The position numbers and the translations under genes were made by a program. From an uncultured archaeon (GTDB lineage: Archaea; Asgardarchaeota; Heimdallarchaeia; Heimdallarchaeales; Heimdallarchaeaceae), in the NCBI GenBank assembly GCA_964534625.1, contig CAZHRF010000027.1, forward strand, positions 1 to 43,234: a DNA stretch of 43,234 nt, written 5' to 3'. Of the stretch, positions 20,585 to 33,855 are shown piece after piece (the stretch's first letter is position 1; every line of letters starts with the position of its first letter). The notes beneath the pieces are model-generated. The model was not told the origin of the DNA. It saw only the letters and a list, made by a program, of their open reading frames with translations, and did not search any database.

Positions 20585-20832
20585 ATGAGTTTTTTTAGGA
20601 AGATTTAGGAGAGTTCCTAAAAATGTAGCACTTCACCCAAGTGGCAACGTGACGAAGAGGAACACGATGTACCTGTAGCAAAGAAATATAAGATAAGACT
20701 CCGGGAACGAAAGGACATAATGATCCTGTGGCGATAGAAGCACAGATGATACGGACAAGGCTAAATAATACGCCCTTAGCGTCCGTAAGAGGGTTCATTG
20801 CACTAGTGACCTTAGGACTCATTGATTGAAAA
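20585..20832 (-). mobile_element. Dispersed non-coding repeat, short copy A (MITE-like)
   Basis: Colinear with the reverse complement of 33602-33855 and with 24051-24209; shares motifs and the terminal AACTCAT with 21603-22172. Confidence 0.85.
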
Positions 20833-21050: not shown

Positions 21051-21604
21051 ATGAATAGTTGCAACTCTAGTCAAGAAAAACGATATACTCTTAGATTAGA
21101 TTCTAAGTTTCTTGAGTGTTTGAAACACCCTGATTATACTAAACTAGAAAAGGAAGTACTTGATTATTGGAATTCTCATCGTATTTTTGAACTTCTTAAG
21201 AAAAAAACAAACATGGAAAACACTTTAGATTTTTCGATGGACCCATAACTGCTAATGGGTTGATGGGTGTTCATCATGTAAGAGGACGAGCTCTTAAAGA
21301 TGCTTTCCAACGCTTTAAATCTATGTGTGGATATAATACCCGTTTTCAAAATGGTTTTGATTGCCAAGGTCTATGGGTTGAAGTACAAATAGAACGAGCT
21401 CTTGGTCTTGATACCAAGAAAGCAATTCTAGACTATGGAGAAAAGAAATTTGTCCGTAAATGTTCAGAACGTGTAACTCATTTTGCTAATTTACTGACTA
21501 AACAATCCATACGCCTAGGTCAGTGGATGAATTGGAAGTCATCATATTATACTCATCACGATACAAACATAGAGCATATATGGCAATTTTTGAAAAATTG
21601 TCAT
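21051..21604 (+). pseudogene. ileS: Isoleucyl-tRNA synthetase N-terminal fragment (GVHH-type), frameshifted and truncated
   Basis: LEKEVLDYW; one base is missing in the A7 run at 21201-21207, and restoring it gives F.FFDGPITAN..MGVHH..GR..KD, then QNGFDCQGLWVEV, QSIRLGQWMNW and IWQFLKNCH. Similarity stops at the inserted element. Confidence 0.9.
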
Positions 21605-22172
21605 GGGTTTTTTTGGTCACTTTTGGGTACAAAATGTTGTGTTTATATAGGACCATTTTGTAAGAAAGAGTAGACGTGGAAGAAGAAACTCACAAAAAAA
21701 ACCAGTTGTACTGGAAACAGTGAGAAAACATAACCCACGTGAAAGTGAGGTCAAGAGAAACAATCCTGATCAGATACTACCTGCTATCCGGAACATGACG
21801 ATGTTCGAATATCGGGTAAGCAGTCAGGTATTCCATGTACTCGGGCAATGCTCGCAGTGCTAGATAGGGTGGTACGTCTCTACCTTACGTATCAGCTATC
21901 ATCCCGGAGGTGGTAGCTTTCCTCAGGAGAGCCAAGTAAGCCTAGTTGGGCCAGTAATGAGTCCCGGGAAGAATGTCGCGATGAACCCACACACTGGCGT
22001 TAATCTTGTAGATTGCTGGTGTAATCTTGACACTTATCGCTCCCAGGTGTAACAACACTGGATACCTTGGTATTCTTGTGTTGTTCTCCTTTTATCACGT
22101 GTCCAGTTGGGTGAGGTGATACACTAGCGGGTGTATTGGGTTACGTACCCAGTTGTACCCAAAAGAACTCAT
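21603..22172 (+). mobile_element. 570-bp non-autonomous element with imperfect terminal inverted repeats, AT at both junctions and a highly structured non-coding interior (IS110-like hypothesis)
   Basis: Left end atgggtttttttggtcacttttgggtacaaaa versus right-end reverse complement atgagttcttttgggtacaactgggtacgtaa (23/32 ungapped). Multiple hairpins inside. Removing it rejoins ileS as C-H-R-K. Confidence 0.7.
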
Positions 22173-22584
22173 AGAAAACGCAGAGGAATGACAACTTCTC
22201 CACAAGCGTACGTTCCCGTAGTATCTACGGTACAATGATGATGAGTAGTAAGAAGACGACAACCTTCAACAAATAAATTATGGGCAGCGTTAGTATCTCT
22301 ATCGTGGGTAGCAGAACAAGAAGGACAAACCCACGTGCGATCAGATAAACGTAAGGTTTTATTAATATAGCCACACGTTGAACACTTCTTACTGGAAGGA
22401 AAGAAACGATCAACTTTGATAAGATATTTTCCCCGTTCTTCAAGTTTATATTCAAGTAAACGGACAAACTCTCCCCACGAAAAATCTAAGGTAACGGACT
22501 TACTTATCCCACCATTAAATTGTTGTGTTTTTTCGCCATTCATCCCACCCCCAAGTGAGTGGGCATTCTGGCTAGGTTAGGTAA
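22173..22584 (-). mobile_element. tnpB: IS200/IS605-family remnant: left end fused to a 3' fragment of tnpB
   Basis: SWGEFVRLLEYK, FPSSKKCSTCG, WVCPSC...HDRDTNAAHN (Zn finger + RuvC III). Left-end hairpin cccactcacttgggggtggg is preceded by TTAC (22581-22584, minus strand). Roughly the N-terminal two-thirds is deleted and the right end is missing. Confidence 0.9.
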
Positions 22585-22855
22585 AATTTTTTTTGGAAAT
22601 CTTTTGATTTAAAGGAAACAAATAAAAATTGTATTATTAATGAACAATTAGCAATTAATCAACATTGTTGAAAAAGGAAAAACGCCGTATCTTTCTTTTC
22701 CATTGTTGAGATAATGCTGTCCTAATCTGAAGTGAGTATATGAAATTAAGTTTATTAATAGCACTTATATTGGTATCGCTTATATCTATTACTATGCTCA
22801 TATATGGTCTAGTAAATTTTTTTAACGAATTGAAAAAACTAAAAAGGGAGGAATT

Positions 22856-24050: not shown

Positions 24051-24209
24051 ATGAGTTTTTTTAGGCAGCTTTAGAAATTTTCCTAAAAATATAGCACTTC
24101 ACCCAACTGGCAACGTGAAGAAGAGGAACACGATGTCCTGTAGTAAAAGAGTATAAGATAAGACTCCGGGAACGAAAAGACATAATAACCCTGTGGCGAT
24201 AATTGAAAA
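24051..24209 (-). mobile_element. Dispersed non-coding repeat, short copy B (internally deleted)
   Basis: Matches copy A from atgagtttt through ctgtggcgat, then jumps to the terminal attgaaa. Confidence 0.85.
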
Positions 24210-24255
24210 TATCCATTAACGAATTAGTTTTATAAACAACCTTTACAGTTATTAT

Positions 24256-33601: not shown

Positions 33602-33855
33602 GTTTCAATCAAATCCATGAGTCCTAGAGTCACTAGTCCAATGAATCCTCTTACCAGCGTTAAGATCTTATTATTTAGCCTTGCCCGTATCACCTGTGCT
33701 CCTATCGCTAAAGGGCCATTATGTCTTTTCGTTCCCCGAGTCTTCTCTTATACTCCTTGGCTACAAGTACATCGTGTTCCTCTTCTTCACGTTGTCAGTT
33801 GGGTGAAGTGCTACATTTTTAGGAAAGTTCCTAAATCTTCCTAAAAAAAATTCAT
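33602..33855 (+). mobile_element. Dispersed non-coding repeat, short copy C
   Basis: Reverse-complement colinear with 20585-20832; ends in tcctaaaaaaaattcat. Confidence 0.85.

What the first reader, a model, noticed from the sequence alone, without database searches (positions are those of the whole stretch)
21603..22172. 570-bp ORF-less mobile element carrying a large structured RNA, with ends that rejoin into a dyad around an AT core
Seen: a relatively GC-rich insert interrupts ileS at tgtc-AT-agaaaa, with AT at both junctions. The ends are ungapped imperfect inverted repeats (23/32) with a GGGTAC-like motif repeated at 10-bp spacing. A circle junction would read cccaaaagaactc-AT-gggtttttttgg, a pseudo-palindrome. 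The interior is packed with stems: ctgct..gaacat/atgttc..agcag (21781-21823), tacgt/acgta, ccagt/actgg (21951-21997), aacaacac..atacc/ggtat..gtgttgtt (22051-22085), and ccag-ttgta-ctgg beside an A8 run (terminator-like on the minus strand). Established: IS110/IS1111 elements recombine through a short core and encode a bridge/seek RNA in a long non-coding end. Inference: this is a transposase-less derivative of an RNA-guided recombinase element with an unusually long RNA, or a new RNA-bearing element mobilised by a serine-type recombinase.
Basis: partly seen in the sequence, partly recalled or inferred. Interest (0 to 1): 0.75.

Follow-up and report, generated by a model that had tools for sequence, protein, structure and literature searches.

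The report
Gene-less transposon carrying TnpB guide-RNA scaffold
The 570-bp insert is one of about 20-35 copies of a protein-less jumping element whose folded interior is the guide-RNA scaffold (omega RNA) of a TnpB nuclease transposon that survives intact in sister Asgard archaea: a new example of a known kind of element, not an IS110/bridge-RNA relative.

Summary
Window 21603-22172 is a sharply bounded, GC-richer, ORF-less repeat with imperfect inverted ends (23/32) and a strongly folding + strand (z -4.9). It recurs across the genome, mostly at contig ends.

The interpretation needs changing. A covariance model of the 3' 216 nt (21957-22172) finds about 190-nt full-length matches in sister genera. 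There the module lies 26-27 nt after the stop of a 487-488-aa TnpB gene and ends at the transposon right end (...AACTCAT). The RNA is therefore a TnpB omega RNA (right-end RNA).

The 570-bp unit is a TnpB-less, PATE/MITE-like deletion derivative. It keeps the left end with a TATA-like box, a stretch equivalent to the tnpB 3' tail, the omega RNA and the right end. The same architecture occurs in relatives.

It does not split ileS. The left flank is an ileS-like pseudogene fragment and the right flank a remnant of a different TnpB element. Insertion follows a host (C)CAT with no other duplication.

No IS110 link was found, because flanks are diverse. The mobilising transposase is unknown: no Y1 TnpA in this 90%-complete genome. 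The ends are unusually TIR-like. Earlier agents of this scan reached the same reading on other copies in this genome.

The parts
21602..21604 (+). Host CAT, the target or transposon-adjacent motif (TAM) at the left junction.
   Evidence: The intact ileS paralogue reads TGTCATGAG at the equivalent codons. The empty site in G005 has a single CAT, while the filled site in G001 has CAT at both junctions. Ten of 11 own-genome left flanks read CC before ATG.
21605..22172 (+).
   Evidence: Multi-copy at 92-100% identity with unrelated flanks. No ORF. A 97.9% copy lies in metagenome contig L035.
21605..21632 (+). Left end. It is the inverted counterpart of the right end and carries TTTTGGGTAC-type motif copies.
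   Evidence: The left ends of the autonomous relatives are built the same way, with a lineage-specific motif.
21642..21649 (+). TTTATATA, an archaeal TATA-box-like sequence inside a 9-bp-stem hairpin (21628-21662). It is the likely promoter inherited from tnpB.
   Evidence: Read directly from the sequence. TTTTTATAG sits at the same place, about 35-45 nt before the TnpB start codon, in relatives. Promoter function is inferred.
21836..21956 (+). Stretch equivalent to the tnpB 3' tail and the 5' stems of the omega RNA.
   Evidence: It is 70% identical to family-B copies (C1, C94), whose upstream DNA still translates to TnpB aa 402-473. Relatives' gene-less derivatives keep about 97 nt upstream of the core. 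The window copy itself gives no significant protein match.
21957..22172 (+). Omega RNA core scaffold (model R1). It begins AUGAGUCC and ends AACUCAU at the transposon right end.
   Evidence: R1 scores 188.6 bits here. It matches full length next to tnpB in G001, G005, G014, G024 and in metagenome loci. Covariation is shown.
22137..22172 (+). Right end. It holds a subterminal hairpin (TGGGT/ACCCA), two GTACCCA copies 10 bp apart, and a terminal TCAT (transposon-encoded motif, TEM).
   Evidence: Helix 8 covaries across families. A 36-bp piece occurs alone at other loci.
22173..22192 (+). Predicted guide portion of a read-through omega RNA (flank DNA).
   Evidence: Inferred from the position of guides in TnpB systems (bioRxiv 10.1101/2023.03.14.532601). 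Not tested.
21105..21604 (+). Left flank: an ileS-like pseudogene fragment (aa 41-218, one frameshift).
   Evidence: Pfam tRNA-synt_1, E 2e-26. tblastn against the intact C4 ileS.
22173..22586 (-). Right flank: an internally deleted remnant of a different (type-1) TnpB element. It comprises the TNB zinc-ribbon/RuvC-III part plus that element's left end.
   Evidence: Pfam Cas12f1-like_TNB, E 7e-25. It is 91-96% identical to C30, C7 and C31.
20585..20822 (-). Complete copy of the 238-bp sister family, which consists of the omega RNA core only.
   Evidence: R1 scores 267 bits. Alignment.
24051..24252 (-). 5'-truncated sister-family copy.
33617..33855 (+). Complete sister-family copy.
   Evidence: R1 scores 245 bits.

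Best explanation
The segment is a non-autonomous (PATE/MITE-like) deletion derivative of a TnpB-only insertion sequence of the IS200/IS605-IS607 (OMEGA) superfamily.

The autonomous form is about 1.77 kb and is found in sister genera of this Heimdall-group Asgard family. It has a left end with a TATA-like box, a 487-488-aa tnpB, and a roughly 190-215-nt structured omega RNA that runs up to the right end (...AACTCAT).

The window copy lost tnpB but kept four parts:
- the left end, which is shown;
- a stretch equivalent to the tnpB 3' tail, shown only indirectly through family B;
- the omega RNA core, which is shown;
- the right end, which is shown.

Inferred mechanism:
- The left-end promoter transcribes the + strand through the scaffold into the flank.
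- This yields an omega RNA whose 3' roughly 16-20 nt guide is flank sequence.
- A cognate TnpB supplied in trans would use it to cut TAM-bearing empty sites and favour re-copying of the element.
- Movement needs a transposase supplied in trans, which inserts the element 3' of a host (C)CAT without further duplication.

Which transposase does this is not established.
For: 1. Model R1 was built only from own-genome copies. It finds full-length matches in 8 related genomes: 10 in G001, 2-3 in G005, G014 and G024, and single, partly marginal matches (E up to 0.009) in four others.
2. In L081-L084 the module starts 27 nt after a 488-aa ORF and ends at the homology boundary between copies.
3. That ORF is TnpB. 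Pfam Cas12f1-like_TNB gives 2.5e-13. NCBIfam guided_TnpB gives 1.3e-21 over profile positions 26-389 of 389.
4. The same arrangement holds in a 63%-identical TnpB family at 5 distinct insertion sites (9 metagenome contigs).
5. Own-genome family-B copies keep a tnpB 3' coding remnant (aa 402-473, E 5e-12) directly upstream of the module.
6. Relatives have gene-less derivatives with the same layout: left end of about 70 nt, tnpB tail of 97 nt, then the module.
7. Structure is supported. On 21 sequences, 88% of cells pair against 36-45% when partners are slid. Twenty-three pairs change on both sides against 9-13. The covariation score is 0.29 against 0.05-0.09 (for the own-genome set). Many G-U pairs fit only the + strand, and its fold z-score is -4.9 against -2.3.
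8. Mobility and target are supported by unrelated flanks, a nested insertion, a clean empty site with a single CAT, and ileS reading TGTCAT|G natively.
9. Protein-less PATE-like elements that encode omega RNAs are described for IS200/IS605 (bioRxiv 10.1101/2023.03.14.532601, read).
Against: - No intact cognate TnpB and no Y1 TnpA were found in this 89.8%-complete assembly. Present activity therefore cannot be shown, yet copies are 98-100% identical.
- The ends are imperfect inverted repeats with 10-bp-phased motifs. This is not the classical IS200/IS605 pattern of like-oriented left-end and right-end hairpins. A survey found inverted terminal repeats only around DDE-associated TnpBs (PMC10691335).
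- The TnpB scores below NCBIfam's curated cut-offs.
- The window copy's own tnpB remnant gives no significant protein alignment.
- No Rfam family matches.
- Expression, processing and guide use are untested.
- The structure tested on A2 comes from an alignment fitted to the model.
Confidence: 0.9

Rival explanations
1. A transposase-less derivative of an IS110/IS1111 element whose interior is a bridge or seek RNA. It would recombine through an AT core under RNA programming.
For: CAT is present at both junctions and once in the empty site, as a recombination core would be. A long structured RNA lies in a non-coding end. One IS110-type gene exists in the genome.
Against: Across 11 left and 19 right flanks, only CC(AT) is shared. 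There is no 10-14-nt programmed target. The RNA module is adjacent to tnpB, not to a DEDD recombinase, at 4 fully delimited loci in relatives (5 more share over 1.5 kb of upstream homology) and 9 metagenome contigs. The single IS110 locus (C63) shares no sequence with the element. There is no Rfam hit.
Confidence: 0.02
2. The same TnpB/omega RNA derivative, but mobilised as double-stranded DNA by a transposase other than Y1 TnpA. Candidates are an IS607-type serine TnpA crossing over in a short core within CAT, or a DDE or Cas1-like transposase recognising the inverted ends. This rivals only the mobilisation step.
For: The ends are inverted repeats with two 10-bp-phased motif copies each, and the motifs co-vary between lineages: GTACCCAA here, GTGGGGAA in G001, GTCGGAA in the P0017 family. 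IS607 TnpA binds helically phased subterminal motifs (PMC6188088). It also leaves a shared core dinucleotide at both junctions with no TSD (bioRxiv 10.1101/2023.11.20.567912). Inverted repeats were reported only for DDE-associated TnpBs, and Asgard TnpBs can associate with Cas1 variants (PMC10691335). There is no Y1 TnpA in the own genome. The Y1 genes in G001 and G005 belong to an IS605 with unrelated ends.
Against: No serine, DDE or Cas1 gene was found inside or next to any copy examined. The own genome's three resolvase-domain ORFs have the classical domain order and are unlinked. Its Cas1 sits in a cas4-cas1-cas2 operon. The CAT is always in one orientation relative to the element, and the 238-bp family has almost no inverted repeat. 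That argues against a symmetric DDE cut.
Confidence: 0.4
3. A SINE-like retroelement: the RNA is reverse-transcribed from its 3' end into new sites.
For: Nine 5'-truncated copies have intact 3' ends, against one 3'-truncated copy. There is an A-rich stretch before the 3' end.
Against: No reverse transcriptase was found in the genome. There are no variable-length target duplications. The full-length form is a TnpB DNA transposon with defined left and right ends.
Confidence: 0.03
4. A self-splicing intron (group I or II, or IStron-like) that makes its insertions harmless.
For: It is a structured RNA of intron-like size, found inside gene fragments. IStrons combine introns with TnpB elements.
Against: There are no Rfam intron hits at E up to 10 on either strand. 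The boundaries lack GUGYG/AY or a terminal G. Both interrupted genes here are already fragments.
Confidence: 0.01

Closest known systems
TnpB omega RNA / right-end RNA (reRNA) of OMEGA systems, as in ISDra2 and the ISGst elements
   Same: A structured RNA of about 200-300 nt that begins in or near the 3' end of tnpB and ends at the transposon right end. It includes the subterminal right-end hairpin. The guide is expected from the flank, and a short TAM sits at the left flank.
   Different: The sequence and fold match no Rfam family. The host TnpB is a long (487-488 aa), divergent, Asgard-restricted clade. The TAM candidate is (C)CAT rather than the AT-rich TTGAT/TTTAT types. Nothing here has been tested biochemically.
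PATE-like protein-less IS200/IS605 derivatives that encode omega RNAs (Meers et al., bioRxiv 10.1101/2023.03.14.532601)
   Same: No ORF. The left end and right end are shared with tnpB-bearing elements. The omega RNA is retained. Both TnpB and transposase are needed in trans. Multi-copy.
   Different: The ends are inverted repeats with phased motifs rather than like-oriented palindromes. Three nested size classes (about 570, 500 and 238 bp) share one 3' module. There is a strong excess of 5'-truncated copies.
IS607-family TnpB elements (serine TnpA)
   Same: No TSD. A short sequence is shared by both junctions. Helically phased subterminal motifs are present. The TAM overlaps the core. tnpB and omega RNA lie at the right end.
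   Different: No serine TnpA was found with this family. The shared sequence is CAT, not GG. IS607 ends are described as lacking inverted repeats.
IS110/IS1111 bridge RNA / seekRNA elements
   Same: A non-coding end encodes a structured RNA, and a short core is shared by the junctions.
   Different: There is no DEDD recombinase and no programmed target. The RNA belongs to TnpB.

Membership tests
TnpB omega RNA-bearing non-autonomous element (OMEGA, IS200/IS605-IS607 superfamily) | The homologous RNA module lies immediately 3' of tnpB and ends at the right end in autonomous relatives. | tested here: met
   R1 matches lie 26-27 nt after the TnpB stop and end at the copy-to-copy homology boundary.
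TnpB omega RNA-bearing non-autonomous element (OMEGA, IS200/IS605-IS607 superfamily) | The associated protein is a TnpB (RuvC plus zinc-ribbon TNB). | tested here: met
   Pfam PF07282 gives 2.5e-13. NCBIfam NF040570 gives 1.3e-21 over nearly the whole profile but below its cut-off. The GIDLGIN and NADLNGAKNIA motifs are seen in the translation.
TnpB omega RNA-bearing non-autonomous element (OMEGA, IS200/IS605-IS607 superfamily) | Conserved secondary structure with compensatory changes. | tested here: met
   88-92% of cells pair against 35-45% slid, and 23 pairs change on both sides. Caveats: the alignment is model-fitted, and lineages are few.
TnpB omega RNA-bearing non-autonomous element (OMEGA, IS200/IS605-IS607 superfamily) | No coding capacity, multi-copy, and both ends shared with the autonomous form. 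| tested here: met
   The left-end architecture (CATG, T-run, two motif copies, TTTATA) and the right end (...AACTCAT) are shared with relatives.
TnpB omega RNA-bearing non-autonomous element (OMEGA, IS200/IS605-IS607 superfamily) | Insertion next to a short TAM with no target duplication. | tested here: met
   The left flank is (C)CAT in 11/11 own copies and right flanks are variable. There is one clean empty site and the ileS paralogue. A second site was not clean.
TnpB omega RNA-bearing non-autonomous element (OMEGA, IS200/IS605-IS607 superfamily) | The RNA is expressed, carries a flank-derived guide and directs TnpB cleavage. | not testable with these tools
   No transcriptome or assay is available.
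IS200/IS605 sensu stricto (Y1 TnpA, single-strand 'peel and paste') | A Y1 TnpA in the element, or one in the genome with matching ends. | tested here: not met
   PF01797 is absent from the own genome. In G001 and G005 it belongs to an IS605 with different ends.
IS200/IS605 sensu stricto (Y1 TnpA, single-strand 'peel and paste') | Like-oriented subterminal palindromes at the left and right ends, with no inverted repeats. | tested here: not met
   A right-end hairpin is present (helix 8). The left-end hairpin is unrelated in sequence, and the ends are inverted repeats.
IS607 family (serine TnpA) | A serine TnpA with an N-terminal DNA-binding domain, associated with the element. | tested here: not met
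   Three resolvase-domain ORFs have the classical domain order and are unlinked. None lies next to any copy.
IS607 family (serine TnpA) | A shared core at both junctions, no TSD, and phased subterminal motifs. | tested here: inconclusive
   CAT at both junctions and 10-bp-phased motifs are compatible. The core is not GG, and the ends are inverted.
IS110/IS1111 bridge or seek RNA elements | A DEDD recombinase parent and an RNA-programmed target of about 10-14 nt. | tested here: not met
   The single unrelated IS110 gene and the diverse flanks.

The most novel reading that the evidence does not exclude
This Asgard TnpB clade belongs to a transposon type not yet described. It would be bounded by imperfect inverted repeats with co-evolving, helically phased motifs. 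It would insert directionally at (C)CAT. It would be moved in trans by a transposase that is neither Y1 nor classical IS607 TnpA. Its omega RNA-only derivatives (570, about 500 and 238 bp) would spread as 'guide-RNA parasites', and their excess of 5'-truncated copies would reflect an unusual copying step that starts at the right end.
Probability: 0.2. Interest if true: 0.6.

Novelty: new member of a known kind. Interest (0 to 1): 0.3.

Why it matters
It removes a candidate 'new RNA-guided recombinase element' and replaces it with a concrete, testable assignment. It gives an uncatalogued omega RNA family (model R1, about 190-215 nt core) for a long, Asgard-restricted TnpB clade, with a candidate (C)CAT TAM and defined ends. 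That helps the annotation of Asgard genomes, where these GC-rich folded repeats are repeatedly mistaken for new ncRNAs, as happened in several windows of this scan. It also helps TnpB tool mining. The TIR-like ends, the missing transposase and the 5'-truncation bias are modest open questions about how TnpB-only elements move.

Tried and rejected
- **Rfam.** Gathering thresholds on the whole window and E up to 10 on 21400-22700 gave only two tRNAs elsewhere.
- **DNA BLAST of the element against 40 relatives.** One marginal hit. The covariance model was needed.
- **Exact 18-mer scans of public collections.** All hits were at chance level except L035.
- **Search for a parent inside the own genome.** I examined solo right ends on C4, the large repeat families, the IS110 locus, the resolvase loci, and the C42, C17 and C19 TnpBs. 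None carries these ends.
- **Y2, RT and Y1 families in the own genome.** None found. The Y2 control did not ring anywhere, so that result is uninformative.
- **Serine TnpA upstream of the G001 copy.** The 234-aa ORF there is not a recombinase.
- **Direct protein match of the window copy's interior to the TnpB C-terminus.** None. tblastn gave only E 3.6.
- **A second empty site (G001:C39 against G005:C4).** The two genomes differ by an extra 39 nt there, so it is not informative.
- **The TnpB-fragment junction read as a canonical insertion site.** The paralogues' sequence lacks CAT at that point. I treat this junction as secondary: recombination, deletion or an assembly join.
- **Own-genome Cas1 as a candidate transposase.** It lies in a cas4-cas1-cas2 operon.
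- **Intron readings.** Rejected on boundaries and Rfam.
Full report
**What is at 21603-22172**

It is a GC-richer block (0.39-0.53 against about 0.30-0.35). It has no reading frame longer than 70 codons between stops. Its ends are imperfect inverted repeats. I count 23/32, and the repeat finder gives 28 nt at 75% plus a perfect 13-mer. GTACCCA occurs twice, 10 bp apart, near the right end. As RNA the + strand folds at -189.7 kcal/mol, z = -4.87, with 0 of 100 shuffles as good. The - strand gives only z = -2.29. Rfam has nothing here, even at E up to 10.

**The flanks**

The claim that the insert splits ileS is only half right.
- The left flank is an ileS-like fragment (Pfam tRNA-synt_1). It covers aa 41-218, is 59% identical to the intact 1095-aa ileS on contig C4, and carries one frameshift.
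- No continuation of this ileS copy exists anywhere in the assembly.
- The right flank (22173-22526, minus strand) is the TNB/RuvC-III part of a different, 'type-1' TnpB element, followed by that element's left end.
- Three intact paralogues read ...ggtaatag|AGAAAACG at this point.

The two flanks therefore belong to different genes. This copy is either a recombinant or deletion product between two insertions, or a chimeric join across a repeat. The data cannot tell which.

**It is a repeat that has moved**

The own genome is 120 contigs and 89.8% complete.
- It holds one complete internal copy, which is the window's, and a 99.5% copy at a contig end.
- Many partial matches stop at contig ends after 33 or about 53-55 nt. 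These look like assembly breaks.
- There are at least 11 left junctions and 19 right junctions, with unrelated flanks.
- One copy sits inside an older, 80%-identical copy.
- A 97.9% complete copy lies in an independent metagenome contig, L035.
- Left flanks read CC before ATG in 10 of 11 cases; the window has TC. Right flanks share only a purine preference.

**Family structure**

The last 216 nt (21957-22172) begin ATGAGTCC and end AACTCAT. They are homologous to a 238-bp sister family with three copies in this window: 20585-20822 on the minus strand, 24051-24252 on the minus strand (truncated), and 33617-33855 on the plus strand. They are also homologous to the 3' part of an intermediate, roughly 500-bp family on C1 and C94.

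Across the families the subterminal hairpin and a direct repeat of its 3' arm keep their geometry while changing sequence.

**Identification**

I aligned 11 copies of this module, 10 from the own genome plus the 97.9% copy in metagenome contig L035. I derived a consensus structure and built covariance model R1.

R1 finds full-length matches of about 190 nt in eight related genomes of two sister genera. There are ten in G001. Four of the eight have only a single match, some marginal (E up to 0.009).

In nine of those loci, homology continues more than 1.5 kb upstream. In L081-L084 the element is about 1.77 kb. It consists of a left end, a 488-aa ORF, a 27-nt spacer, and then the module, which ends exactly where copies stop being alike (...AAAATAACTCAT|).

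The ORF is a TnpB:
- Pfam Cas12f1-like_TNB gives 2.5e-13.
- NCBIfam guided_TnpB gives 1.3e-21 over profile positions 26-389 of 389, though below the curated cut-off.
- The RuvC-I and RuvC-III/zinc-ribbon motifs are visible.

Its homologues are named from Heimdall-, Thor- and Lokiarchaeota. A 63%-identical TnpB found at 5 distinct insertion sites (9 metagenome contigs) has the same layout, and R1 hits 26 nt after its stop.

The module is therefore the omega RNA (right-end RNA) scaffold of this TnpB clade.

**How the 570-bp unit relates to the parent**
- Own-genome family-B copies still translate to TnpB aa 402-473 (46%, E 5e-12) directly upstream of the module. Contig C17 starts inside aa 332-367 of such a gene.
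- The window element's positions about 234-401 are 70% identical to family B. Its own remnant is too decayed to score as protein.
- Relatives contain gene-less derivatives built as left end (about 70 nt) + last 97 nt before the module + module. This is the same design as the window element.
- The left ends share an architecture across lineages: CATG, a T-run, two copies of a lineage-specific motif, then a TTTATA box about 35-45 nt before the TnpB start.
- The window copy keeps TTTATATA at 21642-21649. A transcript running from there through the scaffold is plausible but inferred.

**Structure support**

On the own-genome alignment, 92% of cells pair, against 35-45% when partners are slid by 1-3 columns.

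On 21 sequences that include relatives not used to derive the structure:

| Measure | Structure as given | Partners slid |
|---|---|---|
| Cells that pair | 88% | 36-45% |
| Pairs changed on both sides | 23 | 9-13 |
| Covariation score | 0.29 | 0.05-0.09 |

Helices 3, 5, 6 and 8 carry most of the changes. Frequent G-U pairs fit only the + strand.

Caveats: alignment A2 is fitted to the model, the lineages are few and related, and the same pairs could in principle form in single-stranded DNA.

**Target and junctions**
- A clean empty site exists. G005:C195 reads ...aaaagCAT|TAATTGG where G001 has ...gaagCAT[element...AACTCAT]GAATTGG.
- The intact ileS reads TGTCATGAG where the window pseudogene reads TGTCAT|GGG.

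So one CAT is host sequence. The element proper is 21605-22172 and ends in its own TCAT. Nothing else is duplicated. This fits the TAM/TEM logic of IS200/IS605 elements. It equally fits a short recombination core, as in IS607. A second site comparison was not clean.

**What remains open: the transposase**
- No Y1 TnpA is detectable in the own genome.
- The Y1 genes of G001 and G005 belong to an IS605 with unrelated ends.
- No serine, DDE or Cas1 gene lies in or next to any copy examined.
- The ends are inverted repeats with two 10-bp-phased motif copies that co-vary between left and right ends across lineages.
- That is unlike classical IS200/IS605 ends. It is reminiscent of the phased motifs bound by IS607 TnpA (PMC6188088).
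- A survey reported inverted repeats only for DDE-associated TnpBs and noted Cas1-associated TnpBs in Asgard archaea (PMC10691335).

I cannot decide between these. I give roughly 40% to a non-Y1, double-strand pathway.

**An unexplained bias**

Nine copies are 5'-truncated with intact right ends, including 36-bp solo ends. Only one is 3'-truncated. A retroelement reading is unlikely: there is no RT, no variable duplications, and a DNA-transposon parent.

**Against the IS110 reading**
- Flanks are diverse.
- The RNA is tied to tnpB.
- The one IS110 gene (C63) shares nothing with the element.

**Verdict**

This is a real, recently mobile, protein-less TnpB/omega RNA element. It is a new member of a known kind. 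This scan already reached that conclusion for other copies in the same genome (e1-5621646, e1-5612846, e1-5612849), and my route to it was independent.

Noticed in passing
window 20585-20822 (-), 24051-24252 (-), 33617-33855 (+): Three copies of the 238-bp sister family, which consists of the omega RNA core alone (ATGAGT...AACTCAT). One of them is 5'-truncated. Complete copies follow CC or CA and have no target duplication.
   Followed up: yes
window 22173-22586 (-): Internally deleted remnant of a second, unrelated TnpB element family (type 1). Its left end reads TTTTATTTGAACG... with a CCCCGTCC/GGGCGGGG hairpin, and its right end reads ...GGTAGTTCAT. It has about 20 gene-less derivatives elsewhere in the genome.
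   Followed up: partly
window 21105-21604 (+); G000 C4:52310-55594: The ileS-like stretch is a frameshifted N-terminal pseudogene fragment, 59% identical to the intact ileS on C4. The intact gene is itself followed, about 260 nt downstream, by a 5'-truncated copy of the element (C4:55856-56006).
   Followed up: partly
own genome: C4:111330-111368, C4:125491-125526, C13:859-908, C49:16062-16093, C30:40782-40813: Solo right-end fragments of about 30-50 bp with unique DNA upstream. Overall, 9 copies are 5'-truncated and 1 is 3'-truncated. No mechanism is established.
   Followed up: partly
L035 1900-1981: The public metagenome contig carrying the 97.9% copy ends in a library-adapter sequence (...AGATGTGTATAAGAGACAG). 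That end of the contig is therefore not genomic.
   Followed up: no
G000 C63:5108-6805 (L042 1109-2806): A single IS110-type gene (DEDD_Tnp_IS110 plus Transposase_20). At 566 aa it is unusually long, with an N-terminal extension of about 110 aa. It is unrelated to the element studied.
   Followed up: no
G000 C17:2-109 (-): The contig begins inside a tnpB of the element's own clade (aa 332-367, 58% identity). An autonomous or longer copy may lie in an assembly gap.
   Followed up: partly
G001:C39 (L081/L062) against G005:C4 (L105): At this insertion site the sister genome lacks the element, the CAT, and a further 39 nt to the right of it. This is an imprecise difference that I could not explain.
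   Followed up: partly
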